The notes: a model not told the origin generated them from the sequence alone. Shown: positions 802 through 19,575, numbered from the stretch's first letter. The stretch is DNA of 24,269 nucleotides from Opitutia bacterium (GCA_050506795.1 JBJHCF010000060.1:1-24269), one strand, 5' to 3'. Translations and numbers: made by a program.

Positions 802-1269
802 TCAAAGTTTCATGATGGAAACACCCGCCTCCCCGAGAATTTCCTGAGTCAGCGGGTCGTTATTGTAATCAATGCGGTATTTGATCGCGGCGATACCCGC
901 CCCAGCCAGAATTTTGGCGCAGTTGACACAGGGAAAGTGCGTAACATAGGCGCTGGCTCCTTCCACGCTGCTTCCTCGGCGTGCCGCGTCGACAATGGCA
1001 TTTTGCTCGGCATGGACTGTTCCCTGTTCATGTCCGTCACGAACCCGCGAACTGTGGGGAGTTCCCGGCAGGAATCCGTTATAACCGGCGGCGATGATCC
1101 GGTTCTTATGGGCTCCGCCTGAAACCAGCACACATCCGACATGCAAACGTCCGCAAGCCGAACGCGAGGCAATCAGGAACGCTGTTGCCATGAAATATTC
1201 ATCCCATGAGGGTCGATAGGACAACTCAGAGGTCACCGCTACGATCTGATCAAGGAAACCGTGACTCAT
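802..1269 (-). CDS. dCMP deaminase (ComEB/deoxycytidylate deaminase family)
   Basis: RPSWDEYFM, SRSAC, VGCVLV, AGYNG, and zinc motifs HAEQNA and FPCVNC. Confidence 0.92.
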   Translation of the reverse strand: MSHGFLDQIVAVTSELSYRPSWDEYFMATAFLIASRSACGRLHVGCVLVSGGAHKNRIIAAGYNGFLPGTPHSSRVRDGHEQGTVHAEQNAIVDAARRGSSVEGASAYVTHFPCVNCAKILAGAGIAAIKYRIDYNNDPLTQEILGEAGVSIMKL

Positions 1270-6564: not shown

Positions 6565-6668
6565 ACACTTGAAGGAAAATTCAGCAAAACATTCCCCAAA
6601 ACCACGTGTCCAAAGACCTTGACCACGACCCGCGAAGGGCGTTTCTAATTTCAACATCGGTGTCGCTC

Positions 6669-7805
6669 ATGAATTTGTTTCACCACCCCCACCCGGCTCG
6701 ACCGGCCCTTCTCCTGACAGGCGTCCTTCTGACCTTCCTCGGCGCGCCGGGCTGGGCGCAGTCCGATTCCAGTCCGCTTACCGCCGCCATCTTCGTGCAG
6801 AATCGAGCCGGACCGGAGTTCGAGGATAAAGCGGGTCTGCTGGAAGATCTCATCACCTCGCGAGTCACCGAACTCGGCTACTCGGTAATGAGCCGCGAAC
6901 TCTTGCTGGACGCCGTTGCCGCCGACCCGGAACGCGACCTCGACGCCCTGCTTTCCAGCCGCACCTCCGCCGCCGGCCTGGCGAGAAACCTTGACGCCGA
7001 CGCCATTCTGGCGGTGACGATTTCCTCGTTCGGCCGCAATCTCCGCCATTACCAGGGACACGGAGTCGATGTGGTCAGCACCGAACACGTATTGCGGGCC
7101 ACCTATCGTCTGTTCGACGGATGGGAGGGCGGAAGCCTCCTCGCCGACACGGTGCGGGTCACCCATAACGAGCGGACCAGTCCGAACCTCAGTCGTCAGA
7201 CCAACGACCTCCCCAACGACTTGCTCGACCGAGCTTCCGCTCAATTGGCCTTAGGGCTGGCGACGCGCACCGTGGAAGGCCCCCCTGCCGTTTTCGCGGA
7301 ACGCCCGTCCAAAGTCCCTTTTCAGGTCGATATCTCCCTGCGAAACCTGCGCATTCCCCACGTCAATGTCTCCCGTGACGGCGTGGTCACGCTGAGCAAC
7401 ACCGATCATGAGATGGTCCCGCAATCGGTGACCGTGGAACTCGACGGCATCGTGGTCGGCAGCGCCCCCGGAGCCCTGCAAGGCCGTCCCGGTCTGCAGC
7501 GGATGCGGCTGAGTCGCGACGGCTTTGCCGACTGGGAACGGATGGTAAACCTGTACCCGGATTTCCACCTCAATGTTGCCCTGGAACCCTCCGCCGAGGG
7601 CGTAGAGCGCTGGCGGGAGTACACGGAATTTCTCAATGAACTGCAAACCGGAGCCCGTCTGACGGAGGCCGAAATCGAAGTGCTCCGCGGGCACGCCGAA
7701 CAGCTGAGGCAGAGCGGTTTCCTCATCGACATCCGGGTGGATACCGAAGAAGGTCTCACGATCGAAAACCGGTATCCCCGTCTCTTTCCACAACTCGGAC
7801 GCTGA
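6669..7805 (+). CDS. Secreted protein: N-terminal CsgG/TolB-N-like alpha/beta domain plus PEGA domain
   Basis: Signal peptide ending GWA-Q. AAIFVQN...LEDLITSRVTELGYSVMSRE...ARNLDADAILAVTI. PEGA-like VTVELDGIVVGSAP...PGLQRMRLSRDGFADWERMV. Confidence 0.75.
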   Translation: MNLFHHPHPARPALLLTGVLLTFLGAPGWAQSDSSPLTAAIFVQNRAGPEFEDKAGLLEDLITSRVTELGYSVMSRELLLDAVAADPERDLDALLSSRTSAAGLARNLDADAILAVTISSFGRNLRHYQGHGVDVVSTEHVLRATYRLFDGWEGGSLLADTVRVTHNERTSPNLSRQTNDLPNDLLDRASAQLALGLATRTVEGPPAVFAERPSKVPFQVDISLRNLRIPHVNVSRDGVVTLSNTDHEMVPQSVTVELDGIVVGSAPGALQGRPGLQRMRLSRDGFADWERMVNLYPDFHLNVALEPSAEGVERWREYTEFLNELQTGARLTEAEIEVLRGHAEQLRQSGFLIDIRVDTEEGLTIENRYPRLFPQLGR

Positions 7806-7829
7806 AAAAGCCAAAGCTTATCTAATGCC

Positions 7830-8732
7830 ATGAAAAAACCGATACATTACTTTCCCCTCCTCTTTTTCGCCTTTGCGGCTGCCACGGTCGCTTCGTTGTC
7901 GGCCCAGCAACTCGACACCCTCGGCATCAGCGACGTGCAGGTCAACCCGGCGGTACGCGAGTCCGTCGGTCAGGCCGGAAAAACGAATGCGATGAACCGC
8001 GTGCTGGAAGCACTCGACGGCCAACTGATCGATCGCATCAACAACACCCGCAAGTTCCAGATCGTCGGCCGCAGCGACCTGCCCGCCATACTGCGGGAGC
8101 AGGACCTGGCGGAATCCGGCTTGATCGCCGAACGTCCGGCCGACGCGCCCGAACTGCGCGTATCCGGAGTCAACTACATCCTGGTCCCGGTTGTGGACGA
8201 CTTTCAAGACTACGTCGAGACGGCGGAGTTCGAAGCAATCGGTCAACGCGCCCAACGACGAATCGTACGCTTCTCCACGGTGGCGCGCGTTTACAACGCC
8301 GCCGACGGACGGTTGCTCGAATCGGCCAACTTTCAAATCAGCAACCGGGATGTGGCCGAACAGGCCGGCCATGTATCGCGAGATGGCGATTTGAGCGATA
8401 GAATGCTGGTCGCCATCACCCGCGAGATGGCCGAGCGGATTGCCCTGCGGGTGATCGATGTCACCCACCCGGCGACCGTGCTCGCCAAGACAGGCAACCA
8501 GGTGACAATCAACCGCGGCGACGGCGCCGGCATGGTTCCGGGCGAAACCTGGGAGGTGTTTGCGATCGGCGAGGAGTTGATCGATCCCGGCACCGGTATT
8601 TCGCTTGGACGGGAAGAGGTCCCGGTCGGTGAAGTGGTGATAAACCGGGTAAATCCGCTGGTCTCCACCGCCCTGATCGAGGAGGATTACGGGATTGAAC
8701 GCCTCCATGTATTGCGGCGTAAGAACCCGTAA
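7830..8732 (+). CDS. Secreted CsgG/HfaB-family protein with FlgT-C-like C-terminal beta domain
   Basis: Signal peptide LSA-Q. NTRKFQIVGRSDLPAILREQDL, ARVYNAADGRLLES. C-terminal VTINRGDGAGM.PG..WEVF..GEELIDP.TG..LG.EE..VG. Confidence 0.82.
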   Translation: MKKPIHYFPLLFFAFAAATVASLSAQQLDTLGISDVQVNPAVRESVGQAGKTNAMNRVLEALDGQLIDRINNTRKFQIVGRSDLPAILREQDLAESGLIAERPADAPELRVSGVNYILVPVVDDFQDYVETAEFEAIGQRAQRRIVRFSTVARVYNAADGRLLESANFQISNRDVAEQAGHVSRDGDLSDRMLVAITREMAERIALRVIDVTHPATVLAKTGNQVTINRGDGAGMVPGETWEVFAIGEELIDPGTGISLGREEVPVGEVVINRVNPLVSTALIEEDYGIERLHVLRRKNP

Positions 8733-8748
8733 GCCGCCGCCGGCCGCT

Positions 8749-10185
8749 TTGTCCGTCGCGCCAAGTCGTCCCGAAAACCCCATCCTTTTCGGCGCGGCCC
8801 TGTTGGTGCTGGTTTTCCTGGTCAACGGGTGCGCCTCGTATTCCCACAATGTCTCCAGCCTGAATACCGCCTGGGAATCCGCCGATATCGAGCGGGCGGT
8901 GAGGCTGACCTCCGAGGCCGCGGACCGCAGCGACGGGGGCCGCAACGCCGTTCTATGGCACCTGGAACTCGGGGCCGCGCTGCGTATGGCGGGAGAATAC
9001 GAGGAGAGCAACCACGCCTTCGACGCCGCCGCCCAGCGCATCAACGAATTCGAGGAACGTGCCCGGGTGCGCCTCGGCATATCCGCGGCGGCGGCGATCA
9101 CCAACCTCAACGCACTGCCTTACGAGGGTTATGCCTATGACGCCATCATGCTGCACACCTACAAGGCCCTCAACTACATGGCGCTCGGCGACCTCGAGAA
9201 CGCACGGGTGGAACTCAACCGGTCGTTTCTGCGCCAGCGCGACGCGGTTCAGAACAATGCCCGCAGAATCGAACAGGCCCGGCAGGAAGCCCGGGAGGAA
9301 GCCGGCAAGGACGGCGTCGACGTCGACCGTTCGATGACCGACGAACGATTCCGGAGTCAGTTGAACGAAACCTACGCGCACCTCGAGGCGCTGCACGCCT
9401 ACGCGGACTACGTCAATCCCTTTGCGGTTTACCTGGAGGCCTTGTATTTTATGGCTCACCCCTGGAGTCTGGGCAGCGAACTCGAACGCGCCCGACTTTC
9501 GTTCGAAAGGGTCGGCGCCATGATCAGGGAGAACGAATATGTTATCCAGGATATCGCCTTGATCCACGAGATCCTGATGGGACGTCCGACCCCGGCCACC
9601 ACCTATGTGCTCTTTGAAACCGGACGTGGCCCGGTGCGGGAGGAAGTCCGCATCGATCTGGCGATCTGGGGACTGTCCCGGGATGTTCCCTACATCGGGG
9701 CGGCCTTTCCCGACCTTCGTTTCCGGGGACGGCACGACGCTCCGCTCACGGTGACGACCTCGGATGGCGTCCACCGGTCGGCCCGTCTGGCGAGCATGGA
9801 CAGTATCGTGGCGCAGGAATTCCAGAATGAAATGCCGATCGTAATCACCAAGACCCTCCTGTCGACCGCGGCCAAAGCCGCCGCCCAATACGCGGTGTCG
9901 GAGGCCACCCGTGACAGCGGCATCCTTGGCGCCCTGGTTTACCTCGGTGGAATCGTTTACCAGATTGCGATGAACCAGGCCGACACCCGGATGTGGCAAA
10001 CGCTTCCCAAGGAGTTTCACCTCTGCCGCATTCCCACCCCGGAAGACCGTCGCCTGACGCTGAGCACCGCCGGCTCCCTATCGAACATTGAGGTTGAGAT
10101 CGAGCCGGGAATCGTTAATGTAATCTACGTTAAATCGATCTCGCGCGGCACGCCCCTGGTCGTCCATCAGTTCACATTACAATGA
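8749..10185 (+). CDS. COG3014-like TPR lipoprotein
   Basis: Lipobox LVNG-C. LWHLELG, YEGYAYD..MLHTYKALNY, ARVELNR, YVNPF..YL, ADTRMWQTLP. The start is uncertain (TTG 8749 or ATG 8707). Confidence 0.8.
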   Translation: MSVAPSRPENPILFGAALLVLVFLVNGCASYSHNVSSLNTAWESADIERAVRLTSEAADRSDGGRNAVLWHLELGAALRMAGEYEESNHAFDAAAQRINEFEERARVRLGISAAAAITNLNALPYEGYAYDAIMLHTYKALNYMALGDLENARVELNRSFLRQRDAVQNNARRIEQARQEAREEAGKDGVDVDRSMTDERFRSQLNETYAHLEALHAYADYVNPFAVYLEALYFMAHPWSLGSELERARLSFERVGAMIRENEYVIQDIALIHEILMGRPTPATTYVLFETGRGPVREEVRIDLAIWGLSRDVPYIGAAFPDLRFRGRHDAPLTVTTSDGVHRSARLASMDSIVAQEFQNEMPIVITKTLLSTAAKAAAQYAVSEATRDSGILGALVYLGGIVYQIAMNQADTRMWQTLPKEFHLCRIPTPEDRRLTLSTAGSLSNIEVEIEPGIVNVIYVKSISRGTPLVVHQFTLQ

Positions 10186-10622
10186 AAGCACCCAATCTTC
10201 TTCGCCTTGCCATCACACTACCGGCCGCGGCTCTGCTGCTGGCGGGCGCCGCCTGCCAGACCTCCACCGTCGACACGGTGCAACCCGCCGAGTGGCGCGG
10301 CCAGCCCAACGTGGTGGAGGATGAACGCATCACCACCGACCGACGCCTGGCCCGCATAATCGAAGTGCGCGGTGTCAACGAGGCAACTGTAAGCAACGAT
10401 CTTCTGCGCGTTCAGGTGGAACTCCGCAACACCCGTCAGGGACTGCGGCGGTTCAACTACCAGTTCCAGTGGTATGACGACGAGGGAATGATCGTGCAGC
10501 AGGCCACCACCCCCTGGCGCACGCTGCAGATGGAGGGCGGTGAAATTGTTTCCATAACGGGGGTGGCGCCCAATCCGCGGGTGACCGATTTTCGACTCAA
10601 CCTAATGAACTCGACCCGATAA
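10182..10622 (+). CDS. ycfL: YcfL family (DUF1425) lipoprotein
   Basis: Lipobox GAA-C. LRVQVELRN, FNYQFQWYDDEG, PWRTL, ITGVAPNPRVTDFRL. ATGA overlap with the upstream stop. Confidence 0.88.
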   Translation: MKAPNLLRLAITLPAAALLLAGAACQTSTVDTVQPAEWRGQPNVVEDERITTDRRLARIIEVRGVNEATVSNDLLRVQVELRNTRQGLRRFNYQFQWYDDEGMIVQQATTPWRTLQMEGGEIVSITGVAPNPRVTDFRLNLMNSTR

Positions 10623-10656
10623 CGCACACGTACTTCCGGTCAATTTTCACTAAAGC

Positions 10657-10684
10657 GGGACCCGTCCGTGTTTCAGACGGTCCC
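10657..10684 (+). other. Intergenic GC-rich stem-loop between ycfL and lpoB
   Basis: GGGACCCGTC (10657-10666) pairs with GACGGTCCC (10676-10684) with one bulged C. There is no U-tract. Confidence 0.55.
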
Positions 10685-10717
10685 AATCGCTAACCGAACC
10701 ACAAACTTTATTCCGTC

Positions 10718-11353
10718 ATGAAGCAATCCGCCGTCCAACCCGAAAGCCGTTTTCGTTTGCGAGCCCTTGCCTCGCTGGCCGTCGCCGGTCTCTGCCTGAC
10801 CCTGATCGGGGCCGGTTGCCGCTCGGCGGCCTACGTCGACCCCGCGGGTCCGCGCACCATTGTCACCCTGGATGACATCAACATCCAGGACTGGAACGAA
10901 GCGGCCGACCGCATGATCGATTCACTCCTGACCTCGGGAGTCCTCGAACGGGCTCCAGAGCAACCGTCGGTGATGGCGGTCAGCCGAATCTCCAACCACA
11001 CGAGCATTCAGGTGGACACGAACATGCTCACGGGAAAAATCCGCCGCGATCTCAATCAGAGCGGAAAAGTCCTCACCACGACCACCATCGGCCTGGGCGG
11101 ACGGGTGGAAGATCCACTGGCGCAGACGGAACGGGAGTTCCAGGAATTCATGGAAGACCGTCCGAGCGAACAGCGCCGGCCCTATTTCAGCCTGTCGGGC
11201 CGTATCATGGAAGATCAGGTTCAGGCCGGGAGGACCCGGCAGGCGACCTACATCTTTCAACTGGCCATGACGGAAATCACCAGCGGTCTGGCGGTCTGGG
11301 AGGACGAAGTGATGATCACCAAACAAGGTACCCGGCCGGCCATCGGGTGGTAA
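10718..11353 (+). CDS. lpoB: LpoB-family lipoprotein (penicillin-binding protein activator)
   Basis: Lipobox GAG-C. D...A..MIDSLL, ISNHTSIQVDT.MLT.KIR..L..SGK, LSGRI, YIFQLAMTEITSGLAVWEDE..I.K. Located downstream of ycfL. Confidence 0.88.
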   Translation: MKQSAVQPESRFRLRALASLAVAGLCLTLIGAGCRSAAYVDPAGPRTIVTLDDINIQDWNEAADRMIDSLLTSGVLERAPEQPSVMAVSRISNHTSIQVDTNMLTGKIRRDLNQSGKVLTTTTIGLGGRVEDPLAQTEREFQEFMEDRPSEQRRPYFSLSGRIMEDQVQAGRTRQATYIFQLAMTEITSGLAVWEDEVMITKQGTRPAIGW

Positions 11354-13977: not shown

Positions 13978-14005
13978 ATATTGTGCTGAAAAGTCGATCT
14001 GTCAA
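13978..14005 (-). promoter_or_regulatory. Putative sigma70 promoter of ctpA-tsaD
   Basis: Minus strand TTGACA-16 nt-CAATAT in the divergent intergenic region. Confidence 0.45.
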
Positions 14006-14009
14006 AGCC

Positions 14010-15017
14010 ATGGATAAAGAACCCGGACACCGGTCGACGCCTCTCGCCTCCCGAATCACCCGGCAAATTCGCTCTTCGGGCGCGATTACCTTCGCGGAAT
14101 TCATGCGGATCGCTCTCTACGACGAAGACGGCGGCTATTACCGTCGCGAACGGGACCGCATCGGAACACGCCCCGGCACCGATTTTGTCACCGCCTATTC
14201 CGCCGGGAACGTTTTCGCCGACCTGGTATCGACCGCCGCCACGAACCTCCTGGGCGTCGAGACGGCGGCGGGGCACGTCTGGGTCGAGCTTGGGGTCGAC
14301 CGGAACGGATCGCTGTGGGAGACCAAACCCATGCCGTATCGAGACCTGATCGTCCGCGGTTACGGTCAAACGGGACCCATGCCTCAGTCGGCGGTCCTTT
14401 TTTCCAATGAATTGTTCGACGCCCAGCCCTTCCACCGGGTGCGATTTCATAGGGGTTCGTGGCGCGAAGCCGGCATCACGACCGGCGCCGAACCCGGTGA
14501 ATTCCGGGAAACCCTGCTTGAGCAAATGTCGCCGCCCTGCGCCGCCTGGAGCCACCATCTGCCGGACGACGCCCCGGAAAACCACACCCTCGATCTCCCC
14601 ATCGGCGCCGTCGACCTCCTGGAGAGCCTCGTCGCCCCGACCTGGAACGGCCTTTTCCTGGCCTTCGACTACGGGAAAAGCTGGGAACAGTTGCTGCACG
14701 AACAGCCGCACGGAACCCTGCGCGGCTACTCCCGTCACCGGCAAACAACCTCGATTCTGGATAATCCGGGGGAGCAGGACATCACCGGACACGTCTGCTG
14801 GGACTGGATGCGCGAAATCCTCGAACGGCACGGATTTACCGACATCGCTTTGCTCGGACAGGAAGCGTTTTTCGTTCGCCACGCCGCCGGCGCCATCGAA
14901 AGAATCATCACCCGCAACCCCGGCCGCCCGGATCCCGATCGTCAACGCCTGCACCAGTTGATTCATCCGGGGAACATGGGCCAGAAATTCCAGGTTCTCG
15001 CGGCTCGGCGAAAATAG
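14010..15017 (+). CDS. SAM-dependent methyltransferase, MidA/NDUFAF7 family
   Basis: ITFAEFMRIALY...GYY, DFVTA, SNELFDAQP, FDYG, GTLRGY, PGEQDITGHV, MGQKFQVL. Confidence 0.9.
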   Translation: MDKEPGHRSTPLASRITRQIRSSGAITFAEFMRIALYDEDGGYYRRERDRIGTRPGTDFVTAYSAGNVFADLVSTAATNLLGVETAAGHVWVELGVDRNGSLWETKPMPYRDLIVRGYGQTGPMPQSAVLFSNELFDAQPFHRVRFHRGSWREAGITTGAEPGEFRETLLEQMSPPCAAWSHHLPDDAPENHTLDLPIGAVDLLESLVAPTWNGLFLAFDYGKSWEQLLHEQPHGTLRGYSRHRQTTSILDNPGEQDITGHVCWDWMREILERHGFTDIALLGQEAFFVRHAAGAIERIITRNPGRPDPDRQRLHQLIHPGNMGQKFQVLAARRK

Positions 15018-15098: not shown

Positions 15099-17039
15099 AT
15101 GCCCAAGACCCGACGCAAGACCACGGCCAAACCCGATCCATCCCGCTTCTGGATCAGCCGGGACGGCATTATCACCGCCCAGGAAATCAAGGATAGCGAT
15201 ACCCTTCGCCTGGAAGTGGAATTTTCCGTACCCGATCCCGGGGAACGGGCGTTTCTCGCCGAACGCCTCGAACGGCTTCAGTTCAGCGAACGTTCCCGTC
15301 TGGCGCGTGTCGGCACGGAAATCCTGCTCAAGTCGGAACCCGAGATCATCGGCCGCACCATCCGGGTCGTTTGCGAGGCGTTTGTCATTGATCCGCGCTT
15401 TCCCACCAGCGATTGTTTCATGCGCCTGCTCACACCCGGCATCCGGGTCGGCCGCCTTTTCCTGGCGCCGGAGCAATCCAAGCTGACCTCCAATGAAATC
15501 TGGGAGGCCGTGCACGAGAACCGTATCAAACTTCCCAACACGGTATCCATCGACCGTTTGGGCCAGGTTTACTTCACCCCCCATCGGGCATCCTATTCCA
15601 TTCCCTCGGGAATCGCCGAACGCGAATTGGCCGCCTTGATATCCGGCGACCGTCCCCGCTCCTACCTCGATAAGATTCAGCTTCGCGAGCCGGTTGAAAA
15701 CCTGGCCATTCCTCCGGATTCCGGAATTCTCACCAGTTGCTCGATGTATCTTCCCGAACACTACGCGGTACTGCGACGGAACAGCGACCACTTCGGGGTA
15801 CACACTGGGGCGGTGCTGCTGGACCCGGTGAAAACCTTCGGCACCAACGTGATGCTCGAGATCTACAACGCCAGCGATCAAACGGTGGTTAACCCGGTGG
15901 TTTCTCTCGACATCTACCACGCTCCCAAACCCAGCCGCGTCGAAACCGATTCCCTACGGGCAAAACGGGTCTCCTTCCAGCGCGACCTCAAGTCGGTCTA
16001 CGAAGGACTGGCGGAGCCCCCCATCGAAAGCGACAAACGCGTCCGGCCGCGAGCGAACATCGAGCTCAAAGGACAAAGCCCCTGGGACGTCAACGAAAGC
16101 CTGGTGCTGCCCCTCGCCAACAAAACCATCCGGCGACGGACCCTGCGCGAGGAGGTGCGGGGTTATCAAACGCTTTCCCAGGCACTGTCCCAGGCAGACG
16201 GCGAGGCGGACACTCTGGTGATGCAGACCTTTCCCAATCTGTCGGAACACATCGAAATCCTCGCCCGCGGCAAATCCCTGCACCTGAAACGCCTGATTTT
16301 CCGCAACGCATCCCGTACCCATGCCTTTTTCCTGCCTGAGCGCGCCCAGGCTCAGTTGGAAACCTACCGTGAAATGGGCCTGGAGGTGTACTGGTACAAC
16401 GAGCAGTTCGACACGCTGTTCGTGCACACCTACAAAAAAGATCGCGGCTTTTTCATCCGGGAAGAGCACCTCCGGCAATTTCAGGCTTCGACCATCCTGG
16501 CGTTCTATGGATCCGGCGAAACCCTGACCGCGGAGGTCAAATCCAATATGGAGAATCTGCTCACCACCCTGGTGGAGTTTTTCGGACGACGGGTCGGCGT
16601 ATTGACCGGAGGGGGCGGCGGGATAATGGAACACGCCACCGAGACCGCCCGCACACAAGGGTGCCTGCGTGGGGCCTGCTTTCTCGAGTTGGAAGCGGTG
16701 GAGGACGTTCTCGAGGTCGATTTCTTCAACACCTTCCAGGAAACCGCCCGGCACAACCGTCAGAAGTGGTTTGAACTGGCGGACTTCTGTATCTTCAACG
16801 TCGGCGGAGTCGGCACCCTGGAGGAGATTGGCATCGAACTCTGCAACCTGAAGCTGGGAATTCGGCCGTGCGCCCCGATGGTTTTTTTTAGCAGCCAACA
16901 TTGGGATTCGCTCCGCGGTCAGGTCGAAAAAATGGTCGAAACCGGGCGCACTCCCGCATGGATGCTGGATTACCTGCTTTTCACCGCCAGCCCGACCGAA
17001 GTGGTGCGCTTTTACCAGAAAAAACTGGAATTGCTTTAA
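15099..17039 (+). CDS. Large LOG/SLOG-family protein (putative nucleotide monophosphate nucleosidase) with ~460-aa N-terminal extension
   Basis: The C-terminal ~180 aa carry ILAFYGS, VLTGGGGGIME, R.K.F...D..IF.VGGVGTLEEI, P.VFF...HW. The N-terminal part has dCTP-deaminase-like motifs (see findings). Confidence 0.85.
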   Translation: MPKTRRKTTAKPDPSRFWISRDGIITAQEIKDSDTLRLEVEFSVPDPGERAFLAERLERLQFSERSRLARVGTEILLKSEPEIIGRTIRVVCEAFVIDPRFPTSDCFMRLLTPGIRVGRLFLAPEQSKLTSNEIWEAVHENRIKLPNTVSIDRLGQVYFTPHRASYSIPSGIAERELAALISGDRPRSYLDKIQLREPVENLAIPPDSGILTSCSMYLPEHYAVLRRNSDHFGVHTGAVLLDPVKTFGTNVMLEIYNASDQTVVNPVVSLDIYHAPKPSRVETDSLRAKRVSFQRDLKSVYEGLAEPPIESDKRVRPRANIELKGQSPWDVNESLVLPLANKTIRRRTLREEVRGYQTLSQALSQADGEADTLVMQTFPNLSEHIEILARGKSLHLKRLIFRNASRTHAFFLPERAQAQLETYREMGLEVYWYNEQFDTLFVHTYKKDRGFFIREEHLRQFQASTILAFYGSGETLTAEVKSNMENLLTTLVEFFGRRVGVLTGGGGGIMEHATETARTQGCLRGACFLELEAVEDVLEVDFFNTFQETARHNRQKWFELADFCIFNVGGVGTLEEIGIELCNLKLGIRPCAPMVFFSSQHWDSLRGQVEKMVETGRTPAWMLDYLLFTASPTEVVRFYQKKLELL

Positions 17040-17049
17040 CCGTGCGCAC

Positions 17050-17907
17050 TCACTCAAGGATCTCCACCACAACCGCCGTGGTGTTGTCCCGGCCCGAGCC
17101 CAGAACACTTTCCCGAACCAGGCTTTCGGCACAGCTCCACTGACGGACCCGCTCGGGCCGGTCGCGGATCAGGTGGTCGATTCCGTTGGGAGAAAGTCCG
17201 TCAATCAAACCGTCGGTACACAGAACAAACCGATCGCCCGCCTCGTAACCGACCGCTCCCTGCTGGGGATCGATGCGCTGGTGCCCTGCCGCCAGGGCCT
17301 GGCTGAGCTGATTGCGCCCCGGGTGAAACCGGGCCTGGGTTTCCGTAATCTGACCGGTCCGCAGGAGCCAGCCGACGTGGGTGTGGTCGTGGGTCAGCTG
17401 TTTGATCCCTCCCGCCTTGGGAAGATAATATATGCGGCTGTCGCCGACATGACAAAAATTCATCCACTCCGGCTGAAACCAGCACATGCTGAGAGTCGTC
17501 CCCATGTCCCGACACTCCTCATACGCCCGGCCCATGGCGATGATCGCCTGGTGAATCTCGCTAAAAAGATGATCCAGCAAATCAGCCGATCCGCGGCGCA
17601 ATCCCATGGCGTCCATGCGGAAGACCGAAGGGGCCAGCTCGGTGATCTTCTCCACCGCGATCCGGCTGGCGAACTCGCCCGCCTTGTGGCCCCCCATTCC
17701 GTCACTGACGGCGAACACAAAATCCCCGCGCTCAAAATCCGACTCACCCACTTTTCCCAGCCGGGTGACTTCCCTCGCGTTAAGAGTCAACGCCAGAAAG
17801 GCATCCTCGTTGTTCTTGCGAAACCGCCCCACATCGGTCAACCCAGACCAGTTCAGGCGAGCATTCAGGGGGGCTTTGCTTTCCGTTCCGGATTCAATTT
17901 CTGACAT
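17050..17907 (-). CDS. PP2C/PPM-family Ser/Thr protein phosphatase
   Basis: TDVGRFRKNNEDA, VSDGMGGH, MGTT, HVGDSRIY, LTHDH, LCTDGL, GRDNTT. Confidence 0.93.
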   Translation of the reverse strand: MSEIESGTESKAPLNARLNWSGLTDVGRFRKNNEDAFLALTLNAREVTRLGKVGESDFERGDFVFAVSDGMGGHKAGEFASRIAVEKITELAPSVFRMDAMGLRRGSADLLDHLFSEIHQAIIAMGRAYEECRDMGTTLSMCWFQPEWMNFCHVGDSRIYYLPKAGGIKQLTHDHTHVGWLLRTGQITETQARFHPGRNQLSQALAAGHQRIDPQQGAVGYEAGDRFVLCTDGLIDGLSPNGIDHLIRDRPERVRQWSCAESLVRESVLGSGRDNTTAVVVEILE

Positions 17908-17922
17908 AGAGGGAGTTTTTTC

Positions 17923-18363
17923 TCATTCGGACTTTTCAGCTTCGTCACGCTGCGACGATTCCACATCCTTAAGCAGCAAACCCTCACCGGTTTCGGTGAT
18001 CAAGGCGAATTCAAAATCGATGACGCAGAACCTCCCGGTCTGCGGATTGTAGGTGATATTACGCGCCGCCCGATCGTCGTGCTGCACCCCGAACCCCAGC
18101 AATTCGTCGAACAGCTCGTTCACCTTCTCCTCGCTGATCCGCGAGACAATGCGGCCCGCGTTCGAGGTCACCAGGTAAAGATCCTCCGGATGCTCCTCCA
18201 CCACCCGCGGAACGAAATCGCACCCCTTCTCTTCCAGATAGCGCAAAATCCGAAGTTCGTTCTCGTAACGCTCTTTCGCTTTCGGCCCCCGGTAACGCTT
18301 GTGAACCAGCCCATCGTATCCGATGCGAACGGTGGCCACCGCCGAATCCTTCATTTCCCTCAT
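17923..18363 (-). CDS. Minimal protein-kinase-like (RIO/Kdo/APH-type fold) protein, 146 aa
   Basis: VHK (beta3 Lys), ENE (helix C Glu), VPRV, catalytic loop HDDRAARN (HxDxxxxN), IDFE (DFG equivalent). Confidence 0.82.
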   Translation of the reverse strand: MREMKDSAVATVRIGYDGLVHKRYRGPKAKERYENELRILRYLEEKGCDFVPRVVEEHPEDLYLVTSNAGRIVSRISEEKVNELFDELLGFGVQHDDRAARNITYNPQTGRFCVIDFEFALITETGEGLLLKDVESSQRDEAEKSE

Positions 18364-18558: not shown

Positions 18559-19575
18559 ATGGCTAAATACAAGCTCGAATACATCTGGCTCGATGGATAT
18601 CAGCCGGTACCCAATCTTCGCGGGAAAACCCGCATCGCCACCGAGGCGCCCAAATCAGTCGACGACTGTCCACTGTGGGGGTTCGACGGCAGTTCAACTC
18701 AGCAGGCCGAGGGGCACAGCTCCGACTGCATGCTCAAACCGGTCGCCCTCTATCCGGATGCCAGCCGCGGAGACAACGCGTTCCTCGTCCTGTGCGAGGT
18801 CATGATGCCCGACGGCGAAACACCGCATCCGTCGAATATGCGGGCCACCATTGAAGACGACCCGAAGGCCTGGTTCGGATTCGAGCAGGAGTATTTCCTG
18901 TTCCGCGACAAGCGGCCGCTTGGCTGGCCCACCGACGGCTATCCGAATCCGCAGGGGGAATACTACACCGGCGTCGGCTACGCCAACGTAGGTGACACCG
19001 CCCGTGAGCTCGTCGACAAGCACCTGGATCTCTGCCTCGCCGCCGGCATCAACCACGAAGGAATCAATGCCGAGGTGGCCAAGGGGCAGTGGGAGTTTCA
19101 AATCTTCGCCAAGGGGTCGAGAAAGTGCGCTGACGATATCTGGATCGCCCGTTACATCCTCCTGCGTCTCTGCGAGAAGTACGGGGTCGACGTTGAATGG
19201 CATTGCAAACCCTTCCTGGGGGACTGGAACGGTTCCGGCATGCACTGCAACTTCTCCACCGAGTACATGCGCGAGGTCGGGGGCGAGGCCTACTTCAAGA
19301 AACTGATGGAGGCCTTCGAGCGGAACAAGGACGAACATATCGCCGCCTACGGTCCGGACAACCATCTGCGCCTGACCGGACTCCACGAGACCCAGTCAAT
19401 CGACAAGTTCTCCTGGGGAGTGGCCGATCGCGGGGCTTCCATCCGGGTTCCGCACAGCTTCGTCAACAACGGCTACAAAGGCTACCTGGAAGACCGGCGT
19501 CCGAACTCGCAGGGCGACCCCTACCAGATCGCGGCCCGTATTCTGCGGACCGTAAACGAAGTTCCGACTTCGTAA
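18559..19575 (+). CDS. glnII: Glutamine synthetase type II (eukaryote-like GSII), 338 aa
   Basis: LEYIWLDG, LRGKT, WGFDGSSTQQAEG, WFGFEQEY, QGEYY.GVG, INAEVAKGQWEFQ, DWNGSGMHCNFS, RLTGLHET, RGASIRVP, GYLEDRRP. The length is typical of GSII. Confidence 0.95.
   Translation: MAKYKLEYIWLDGYQPVPNLRGKTRIATEAPKSVDDCPLWGFDGSSTQQAEGHSSDCMLKPVALYPDASRGDNAFLVLCEVMMPDGETPHPSNMRATIEDDPKAWFGFEQEYFLFRDKRPLGWPTDGYPNPQGEYYTGVGYANVGDTARELVDKHLDLCLAAGINHEGINAEVAKGQWEFQIFAKGSRKCADDIWIARYILLRLCEKYGVDVEWHCKPFLGDWNGSGMHCNFSTEYMREVGGEAYFKKLMEAFERNKDEHIAAYGPDNHLRLTGLHETQSIDKFSWGVADRGASIRVPHSFVNNGYKGYLEDRRPNSQGDPYQIAARILRTVNEVPTS

What the first reader, a model, noticed from the sequence alone, without database searches (positions are those of the whole stretch)
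15099..17039. LOG/SLOG nucleosidase fused to degenerate dCTP-deaminase/dUTPase-like modules
Seen: residues ~128-275 echo Dcd in order: KLTSNEIWEAVHENRIKLP (cf. LSD.EI...I..G.I.I.P), LAIPPDSGILTS...LPEHY (cf. L.PGEFVL..T...LP), and GVHTGAVLLDP..FGTNVMLEIYN (cf. VH.TA..IDPGF.G.ITLE..N). The RSS motif of this unit is degenerate (RRNSDHFG). Residues 65-122 carry RSRLARVG, IDPRF and LTPGIRVGRLF, resembling Dcd RSSLARLG, IDPGF and L.PGMRIGQL.F, though with atypical spacing. The C-terminus is a clear LOG domain. Known: LOG/PpnN enzymes cleave NMPs to base plus ribose-5-phosphate, and PpnN is allosterically controlled through accessory domains. Inference: an undescribed multidomain enzyme that senses or processes (d)NTPs and feeds or gates a nucleosidase, for nucleotide-pool control or nucleotide-depletion defence.
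Basis: partly seen in the sequence, partly recalled or inferred. Interest (0 to 1): 0.75.

Follow-up and report, generated by a model that had tools for sequence, protein, structure and literature searches.

The report
Split deaminase-like head on nucleotide nucleosidase
This gene encodes a conserved, unstudied enzyme in which a nucleotide-cleaving LOG domain is joined to two diverged dCTP-deaminase-like units that each keep only half of the deaminase's active-site residues, so it probably deaminates (or senses) and then breaks down cytosine nucleotides as part of ordinary metabolism rather than phage defence.

Summary
The 646-aa ORF is real. Its C-terminal LOG domain keeps the catalytic Arg554 and GGxGTxEE. 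Full-length homologues fall in three clades: Opitutales, scattered other bacteria, and a Woesearchaeota-type group, down to about 20% identity. The Dcd resemblance is partly right. The 'IDPRF' motif is not conserved. Unit 1 keeps Dcd's Arg110/Ser111/Arg115 and motif IV; unit 2 keeps His121/Ala124/Asp128/Glu138 and has lost RSS. Ser66, Arg70 and Glu254 are invariant in 41 of 41 sequences. This complementary loss fits one composite active site, as in monomeric herpesviral dUTPases. Fold support is sequence-only and moderate: hhalign probability 7-81%, blind PDB searches negative, no structure model available. Best reading (0.5): a housekeeping cytidine-nucleotide deaminase coupled to an NMP nucleosidase. 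An allosteric-sensor role is the main rival (0.25). Defence is unlikely: single copy in 15 of 15 genomes of one family, usually next to purD, no PADLOC, phage or plasmid hit. It does not replace Dcd/Dut, since most Opitutales lack both. No paper describing it turned up in eight searches, but this scan reported the same family on other DNA at least three times.

The parts
15099..17039 (+). Whole gene, 646-aa four-module protein (P0001)
   Evidence: 779 homologues among 8000 candidates scored, the 120 listed covering 98-100% of the query
15138..15476 (+). Unit 1 (residues 14-126): compact Dcd/dUTPase-like unit that keeps motif II (R65, S66, R70), motif IV (G114, G118, R119) and a tentative motif-I Asp (D22); motif III lost
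   Evidence: hhalign against Dcd profiles 20-81%, E 1e-5 to 1e-3; 0 of 60 block shuffles and 0 of 60 decoy families reach it; conservation
15291..15314 (+). RSRLARVG (65-72), equivalent to E. coli Dcd R110-S111...R115-L-G117
   Evidence: S66 and R70 in 41 of 41, R65 in 40 of 41
15477..15932 (+). Unit 2 (residues 127-278): Dcd-like unit that keeps the base-binding hairpin and the catalytic Glu; RSS lost
   Evidence: hhalign against Dcd 68%, E 4.8e-5, 126 columns, but 7-9% with other alignments and 2 of 60 decoys as good
15801..15869 (+). H235-x2-A238-x3-D242-P243 ... E254-x2-N257, equivalent to Dcd H121, A124, D128, P129, E138, N141
   Evidence: E254 in 41 of 41, H235 in 40 of 41, D242 in 33 of 33 bacterial rows and absent from the archaeal-type clade
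15933..16148 (+). Variable linker (279-350)
   Evidence: column conservation 0.29 in distant members against 0.44-0.59 for the domains
16149..16484 (+). Conserved middle domain (351-462), FPNxxEH motif; weakly resembles the second half of the cytidine/dCMP deaminase fold without the zinc ligands (lead only)
   Evidence: hhalign 1.5-4.5%, E 0.01-0.035; no deaminase among PDB hits
16485..17036 (+). LOG/SLOG phosphoribohydrolase domain (463-646) with M510, R554, T573, E575, E576
   Evidence: conservation
16803..16826 (+). GGVGTLEE (569-576), the LOG nucleotide-binding motif; the leading Pro is replaced by Val

Best explanation
A housekeeping nucleotide-catabolic enzyme. SHOWN (sequence): an intact LOG domain; two N-terminal units that keep complementary halves of the Dcd active site; full-length conservation across three clades. 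INFERRED (1): units 1 and 2 fold as two Dcd-type beta-barrels and pack like two neighbouring subunits of a Dcd trimer, giving one active site. Unit 1 supplies R65/S66/R70 and motif IV; unit 2 supplies H235/A238/D242/E254. INFERRED (2): the site deaminates a cytosine nucleotide with E254 as general base. The substrate is more likely a ribo- and/or monophosphate nucleotide (CMP or a modified CMP) than dCTP, because the aromatic deoxyribose gate and the C-terminal lid seem to be gone. INFERRED (3): the LOG domain then cleaves the monophosphate to free base plus ribose-5-phosphate, so one chain runs CMP to UMP to uracil + R5P. The zinc-less middle domain is structural or regulatory. My odds: about 0.75 for the split-site architecture, about 0.5 for the whole account.
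For: In a 41-sequence, three-clade alignment the only strictly invariant N-terminal residues are S66, R70, G118, E254 and P266. Six of the nine well-conserved polar residues map onto Dcd R110, S111, R115, H121, D128 and E138. E138 and H121 are the residues substituted in E. coli Dcd crystal variants. The pattern repeats in 79 metagenome genes fetched afterwards: R65, S66, R70 in 65 of 65 covering rows, E254 in 70 of 70. [quoted passage not shown] The archaeal-type clade has the exact E. coli spacing H-x2-A-x13-E. P0215 and P0230 both end right after unit 2, which suggests the two units form a module. LOG catalytic Arg/Glu are kept and align with PpnN R241/E264. Housekeeping signs: one copy in 15 of 15 genomes of family f4; purD starts within 300 nt downstream in 44 of 78 Opitutales loci.
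Against: No structure model was available. Blind profile searches of PDB sequences found no Dcd, and the language-model search of residues 12-280 gave no usable hit. Profile scores depend on the alignment (unit 2: 7-68%); the archaeal-type clade alone scores 7.9% and 0.4%. The same residues also bind the base, so they could be kept for binding alone. H235 is Asn in 44 of 69 metagenome genes, although real Dcds also vary there. The gate argument is soft: F247, next to the gate position, is aromatic in the Opitutales clade but Arg in distant bacteria. The window's genome has no detectable upp, cdd or codA, so a route for reusing uracil is not evident there, and three f4 genomes with the fusion also have cdd and upp. 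purD is a purine gene, and distant members share no functional neighbourhood. The Lys after the LOG Arg, essential in CgLOGII, is Gln here, although PpnN also lacks it.
Confidence: 0.5

Rival explanations
1. PpnN-like regulation: the split Dcd-type site binds a pyrimidine nucleotide (dTTP, dCTP, CTP, UTP) without turnover and switches the LOG nucleosidase, which cleaves purine or pyrimidine NMPs to balance pools.
For: PpnN is controlled through accessory domains (bioRxiv 10.1101/2025.04.13.648610, passages). The H-x-x-A peptide is the dTTP-sensing allosteric loop of Dcd (PMC4827122, passages). Co-location with purD suits purine/pyrimidine balancing. The middle domain looks catalytically dead.
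Against: E254 is invariant, and its position is not Glu in dUTPases, which bind uracil nucleotides without it. Two proteins appear to be the head alone, without LOG (P0215, P0230), although their contigs could not be inspected.
Confidence: 0.25
2. The N-terminal half is not of the Dcd/dUTPase fold; the motif matches are convergent or chance, and the protein is a LOG enzyme with novel accessory domains.
For: No family-model hit, no PDB Dcd hit, no atlas hit; the two units do not match each other (2%); 2 of 60 decoys equal unit 2.
Against: Both units independently score above all block shuffles; pattern rarity; the invariant residues coincide with the catalytic set in the right order.
Confidence: 0.12
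3. It replaces the missing Dcd/dUTPase and supplies dUMP or removes dUTP.
For: The 97.8%-complete genome has neither Dcd nor trimeric dUTPase; 14 of 15 f4 genomes have no TIGR02274 match.
Against: 57 of 61 genomes of the order lack PF00692, while only 5 of the same 61 carry the fusion. The genome has a dCMP deaminase-like gene (window 802-1269) and an all-alpha dUTPase-family gene, found in 5 of 5 genomes tested. Coupling to a nucleosidase would destroy dUMP.
Confidence: 0.08
4. Anti-phage nucleotide depletion.
For: SLOG domains and cytosine-nucleotide deamination both occur in defence (recalled). The distribution is patchy outside f4: 5 of 11 in the window's own family. An earlier unchecked note describes a hypervariable relative (e1-3306682).
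Against: Single copy in 15 of 15 f4 genomes; housekeeping neighbours; no PADLOC hit for 5 of 5 family members; no match in 50,697 phage or 72,556 plasmid records; no full-length match in three viral-contig scans.
Confidence: 0.05

Closest known systems
Homotrimeric dCTP deaminase (E. coli Dcd, PDB 1XS1/1XS4) and bifunctional Dcd:Dut
   Same: R110/S111/R115, H121/A124/D128/E138/N141 and motif IV equivalents are all present and conserved.
   Different: They are divided over two dissimilar units of one chain; there is no conserved counterpart of the C-terminal Y171/K178/Y179/Q182 segment or of W131; the protein is fused to LOG; it scores below every family model.
Monomeric herpesviral dUTPase (EBV, PDB 2BSY)
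   Same: Two fused barrels, one active site, motif III from one domain and motifs I, II, IV from the other (PMC12524310).
   Different: Domain order is reversed (I-II-IV first, III second); Dcd-type rather than dUTPase residues; no motif V; cellular; no sequence relationship was tested.
Type-II LOG phosphoribohydrolases (C. glutamicum Cg1261, 5WQ3; T. thermophilus TT1465, 1WEK)
   Same: Best credible PDB matches; catalytic Arg and Glu, Thr, GGxGTxxE.
   Different: Lys after the Arg is Gln, the motif Pro is V/I/M, and there is a 460-residue N-terminal extension. The genome has a separate ordinary LOG.
E. coli PpnN
   Same: LOG core inside a multidomain NMP nucleosidase; M190, R241, T261, E263, E264 align.
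   Different: No DUF4478/DUF3412 domain is detected; no evidence for (p)ppGpp control.
Tandem DCD proteins (PF06559; PDB 2R9Q)
   Same: Two Dcd-like domains in one chain (recalled; 2R9Q is listed as a 370-aa Dcd relative).
   Different: PF06559 does not match this gene; no LOG fusion known to me; I could not compare its residue split.

Membership tests
LOG/SLOG phosphoribohydrolase | Pfam PF03641 above its gathering cut-off | tested here: met
   33.2 bits against 27; 25 of 37 members match, many of the rest being fragments
LOG/SLOG phosphoribohydrolase | Catalytic Arg and Glu with GGxGTxxE | tested here: met
   R554, T573, E575, E576; R554, E575, E576 in 79 of 79, position 573 is Thr or Ser in 78 of 79
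LOG/SLOG phosphoribohydrolase | Leading Pro of PGGxGTxxE and Lys after the catalytic Arg | tested here: not met
   V/I/M at 568 and Gln at 555; PpnN also lacks the Lys
Cytokinin-type LOG equivalog (NF058542, TIGR00730) | NCBIfam cut-off | tested here: not met
   16.1 against 300 and 39.2 against 96.35 bits
LOG/SLOG phosphoribohydrolase | NMP cleavage to base plus ribose-5-phosphate | not testable with these tools
   needs an assay
PpnN | PAG1 (DUF4478) and PAG2 (DUF3412) domains | tested here: not met
   no such Pfam hit in P0001 or in 37 members
dCTP deaminase (Dcd) | Match to TIGR02274, PF06559 or PF00692 | tested here: not met
dCTP deaminase (Dcd) | Complete motif set within one domain | tested here: not met
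   motifs II and IV only in unit 1; hairpin and Glu only in unit 2
dCTP deaminase (Dcd) | Catalytic residues S111, R115, A124, E138 present in the protein | tested here: met
   S66, R70, A238, E254, by profile alignment and conservation
dCTP deaminase (Dcd) | Aromatic deoxyribose gate and conserved C-terminal segment | tested here: inconclusive
   K245/T246 sit at W131, but F247 is aromatic in Opitutales; nothing is conserved across clades between P266 and F378
dCTP deaminase (Dcd) | Beta-clip fold and homotrimer | not testable with these tools
   no structure model was available
Trimeric dUTPase | [quoted passage not shown] | tested here: not met
   hhalign 0.4-1.5% for the bacterial units; no conserved Gly-rich motif V after either unit
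Zinc cytidine/dCMP deaminase (PF00383) | HxE and PCxxC zinc ligands | tested here: not met
   the middle domain has FPNxxE(H) and no HxE
Zinc cytidine/dCMP deaminase (PF00383) | Deaminase alpha/beta fold | tested here: inconclusive
   E 0.01-0.035; 0 of 50 shuffles for the broad profile but 3 of 50 for the dCMP subset; 1 of 60 decoys better
Anti-phage defence system | PADLOC model, mobile or defence-island location | tested here: not met

The most novel reading that the evidence does not exclude
A Dcd-fold enzyme that works on ribonucleoside monophosphates: a cellular, herpesvirus-style single-site tandem that deaminates CMP (or a modified CMP from RNA turnover) and hands the product to its own LOG domain, giving uracil plus ribose-5-phosphate in one polypeptide. 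A third, zinc-less deaminase-fold domain would serve as a nucleotide sensor. It would be an unrecognised pyrimidine-catabolic route present in bacteria and in Woesearchaeota-type archaea.
Probability: 0.25. Interest if true: 0.75.

Novelty: new variant of a known kind. Interest (0 to 1): 0.55.

Why it matters
The review I read describes single-site, two-domain members of the dUTPase superfamily as found only in herpesviruses (PMC12524310). A cellular Dcd-type counterpart fused to a nucleosidase would be a new architecture and possibly a new activity for the fold (ribo- or monophosphate deamination). It gives a residue-level, testable hypothesis (S66, R70, E254; R554, E576) for a gene present in every sampled genome of one Opitutales family and annotated only as 'LOG family protein' or 'AMP nucleosidase'. 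Cultured carriers exist (Pelagicoccus mobilis, Thermochromatium tepidum).

Tried and rejected
No structure model, fold search or oligomer model was obtained, so the fold is untested. Pfam, NCBIfam, PDB-sequence and atlas searches gave no Dcd hit. The Pizza and TAL-repeat PDB hits are sums of tiny repeat scores and were rejected. 'IDPRF' as a Dcd motif was rejected. Unit 1 against unit 2 showed no detectable repeat similarity. The middle domain against LOG, Dcd or dUTPase gave nothing, and its DsbC hit (E 0.2) was rejected. The idea that the gene replaces Dcd/Dut was rejected by the order-wide profile. A Streptomyces plasmid Dcd pair is not this family. RNA runs: no RNA holder listed. The promoter/terminator scan was uninformative. 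The tree is the quick version only. Literature: eight searches, judged from listings, showed no paper on this fusion. The 2015 SLOG survey (recalled) was not held under the id I tried; its text or supplements may list the architecture. No supplements were read. PMC10733785 had no passage on the residues sought.

Full report
Observation. It starts 81 nt after a PF02636 methyltransferase gene and ends 10 nt before a convergent PP2C gene. Pfam finds only the LOG domain (PF03641, 33.2 bits, cut-off 27), and NCBIfam LOG models stay below their cut-offs. The best credible PDB matches are type-II LOG proteins. Residues 1-460 hit no library model in this protein, and no Dcd or dUTPase model in any of 37 diverse members.

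Family. 779 homologues were found among 8000 candidates scored; the 120 listed cover 98-100% of the query, and the named ones are Opitutales. A search with residues 1-454 alone returned 116 representatives, many of them partial or frameshifted. Three clades emerge (quick tree): Opitutales; other bacteria, with source names Myxococcota, Planctomycetota and Chromatiaceae and an atlas cluster in Thermodesulfobacteriota; and a group at 18-23% identity whose one organism-named member is a Woesearchaeota archaeon. In 201 genomes of the phylum, full-length matches occur in the window's genome and in 15 of 15 genomes of family f4, one copy each; the other 25 matches cover the LOG part only. I infer from the record titles that f4 is Opitutaceae. 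In the window's own family 5 of 11 genomes carry it.

Are the N-terminal units Dcd-like? I built Dcd and dUTPase profiles from E. coli Dcd and from genome loci. Unit 1 (12-126) scored 81% (E 1.3e-5) against a 6-sequence Dcd profile, and 34%, 40% and 20% in later runs. Unit 2 (126-280) scored 9%, 68% (E 4.8e-5 over 126 columns), 7% and 9% in the same four runs. dUTPase scores were 0.4-1.5% for these units. No block shuffle of 60 reached either score. Against 60 real decoy families, none beat Dcd for unit 1 and two short matches did for unit 2. Two patterns that fit 14 of 14 and 12 of 14 real Dcds occur in order in 1 of 10,377 genome ORFs and in 2 of 100,000 shuffles; 25 of 43 family members carry both (patterns written after seeing the protein; three membrane-tailed Dcd-like sequences were left out of the 17 when counting). 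Against this: profile searches of each unit against PDB sequences found no Dcd at E<=10, the atlas gave no usable hit, and the archaeal-type clade alone scores 7.9% and 0.4%. No structure model was available. The fold assignment is probable, not shown.

The split site. In a 41-sequence, three-clade alignment the strictly invariant N-terminal residues are S66, R70, G118, E254 and P266. R65 (40 of 41), H235 (40 of 41), A238 (38 of 41, the rest Ser), D22 (39 of 40) and, in bacteria, D242 (33 of 33) follow. hhalign places them on E. coli Dcd R110, S111, R115, H121, A124, D128 and E138. E138 and H121 are the residues substituted in deposited Dcd variants. That S111, R115, A124 and E138 form the catalytic set I recall from the primary structure paper, which I did not read; passages of PMC4827122 confirm the role of the HVTA peptide and its Ala. 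[quoted passage not shown] The complementary loss here matches that division. It is reproduced in 79 metagenome genes fetched later: R65, S66, R70 in 65 of 65 covering rows, E254 in 70 of 70, but His235 is Asn in 44 of 69. The idea of a shared site first reached me through an earlier scan note; the tests are my own.

Substrate clues (inference). A conserved aromatic residue in motif III excludes ribose (PMC12524310). Here K245 or T246 stands at W131, although F247 is aromatic in Opitutales. The C-terminal Dcd residues that are invariant in my alignment (Y171, K178, Y179, Q182) have no conserved counterpart: nothing is conserved across clades between P266 and F378. Both points argue against dCTP and towards a ribo- or monophosphate nucleotide, the substrate class of LOG.

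LOG domain. R554, T573, E575, E576 and M510 align with PpnN R241, T261, E263, E264 and M190, which passages of bioRxiv 10.1101/2025.04.13.648610 show to be needed for full activity. They also match CgLOGII R155, T175 and E178 (PMC5379747, passages). The Lys after the Arg, essential in CgLOGII, is Gln throughout the bacterial clades; PpnN lacks it too. The domain is probably active, with altered specificity. A second, ordinary LOG is encoded elsewhere in the genome.

Middle domain. Residues 351-462 are as conserved as unit 2. By eye they resemble the second half of the cytidine/dCMP deaminase fold with PCxxC changed to PNxxE (note). The test is weak: E 0.01-0.035, above 50 of 50 shuffles for a broad profile but matched by 3 of 50 for the dCMP subset, and beaten by 1 of 60 decoys. 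It remains a lead. Two earlier scan notes say the same, which is not independent evidence.

Context. In Opitutales loci purD begins within 300 nt downstream on the same strand in 44 of 78 loci with room. An LMW phosphatase (42 of 81 loci) and glyA (38 of 81) follow, and an FKBP gene lies divergently upstream (58 of 81). The window's arrangement differs: its neighbours recur in at most 3 of 164 loci, all close relatives, and its purD is on another contig. Distant members sit among unrelated metabolic genes. There is no PADLOC, phage, plasmid or full-length viral match. The genome lacks Dcd and trimeric dUTPase, but 57 of 61 genomes of the order lack PF00692, of which only 5 carry the fusion. 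A dCMP deaminase-like gene and an all-alpha dUTPase-family gene can cover those roles. upp, cdd and codA were not found in this genome, while upp and cdd are present in three f4 carriers, so the metabolic purpose stays open.

Verdict. A real, conserved, uncharacterised four-module enzyme. It is a LOG-superfamily member, but not a PpnN and not a member of the Dcd or dUTPase families as defined. It most likely works like a single-site Dcd coupled to a nucleosidase (0.5); sensor 0.25, not Dcd-fold 0.12, Dcd/Dut replacement 0.08, defence 0.05. Eight literature searches (listings only) showed no description; supplements and the 2015 SLOG survey were not seen. The scan has reported this family on other DNA at least three times. 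New variant of a known kind; interest 0.55.

Noticed in passing
P0215 (282 aa) and P0230 (294 aa): Two proteins, 43% identical to each other, consist of units 1 and 2 only and end at the same boundary; possibly stand-alone heads without LOG. Their contigs could not be read.
   Followed up: partly
P0237, P0242-P0248: A deep clade, one member named Woesearchaeota, with the same layout; it keeps Ser/Arg/His/Glu but lacks the motif-III Asp-Pro.
   Followed up: partly
L242:941-3450 (Streptomyces sp. F12 plasmid pFRL6): A kinase-like gene, two adjacent Dcd-like genes with differently eroded motifs (one keeps the Glu, the other the Asp), a cytidine deaminase and a methyltransferase; a separate-gene parallel, perhaps for nucleoside modification.
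   Followed up: partly
L105:1078-2043, L118:1027-2127, L107:1120-1944: Dcd-like domains with eroded motifs fused to C-terminal hydrophobic, membrane-like segments in three Verrucomicrobiota genomes.
   Followed up: no
order-wide: Most Opitutales lack trimeric dUTPase and Dcd; the five genomes tested carry a short all-alpha dUTPase-family gene instead.
   Followed up: partly
G000: upp, cytidine deaminase and cytosine deaminase were not found in the 97.8%-complete genome.
   Followed up: partly
window 802-1269 (-): dCMP deaminase-like gene (PF00383) with intact zinc motifs on the same contig.
   Followed up: partly
window 17050-18363 (-): A PP2C phosphatase with a small APH-like kinase, convergent on the gene; kept only in the closest relatives L003, L004 and L238.
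   Followed up: partly
window 13983-15017 (+): PF02636 SAM methyltransferase directly upstream on the same strand; beside the gene in only 1 of 164 loci.
   Followed up: partly
window 6606-11353 (+): A run of five exported or lipoprotein-like ORFs; by eye a CsgG/TPR/YcfL/LpoB-type cluster (labels recalled, not tested).
   Followed up: no
window 18559-19575 (+): A 338-aa glutamine synthetase (Pfam Gln-synt_N/C); its short length suggests type II (recalled).
   Followed up: no
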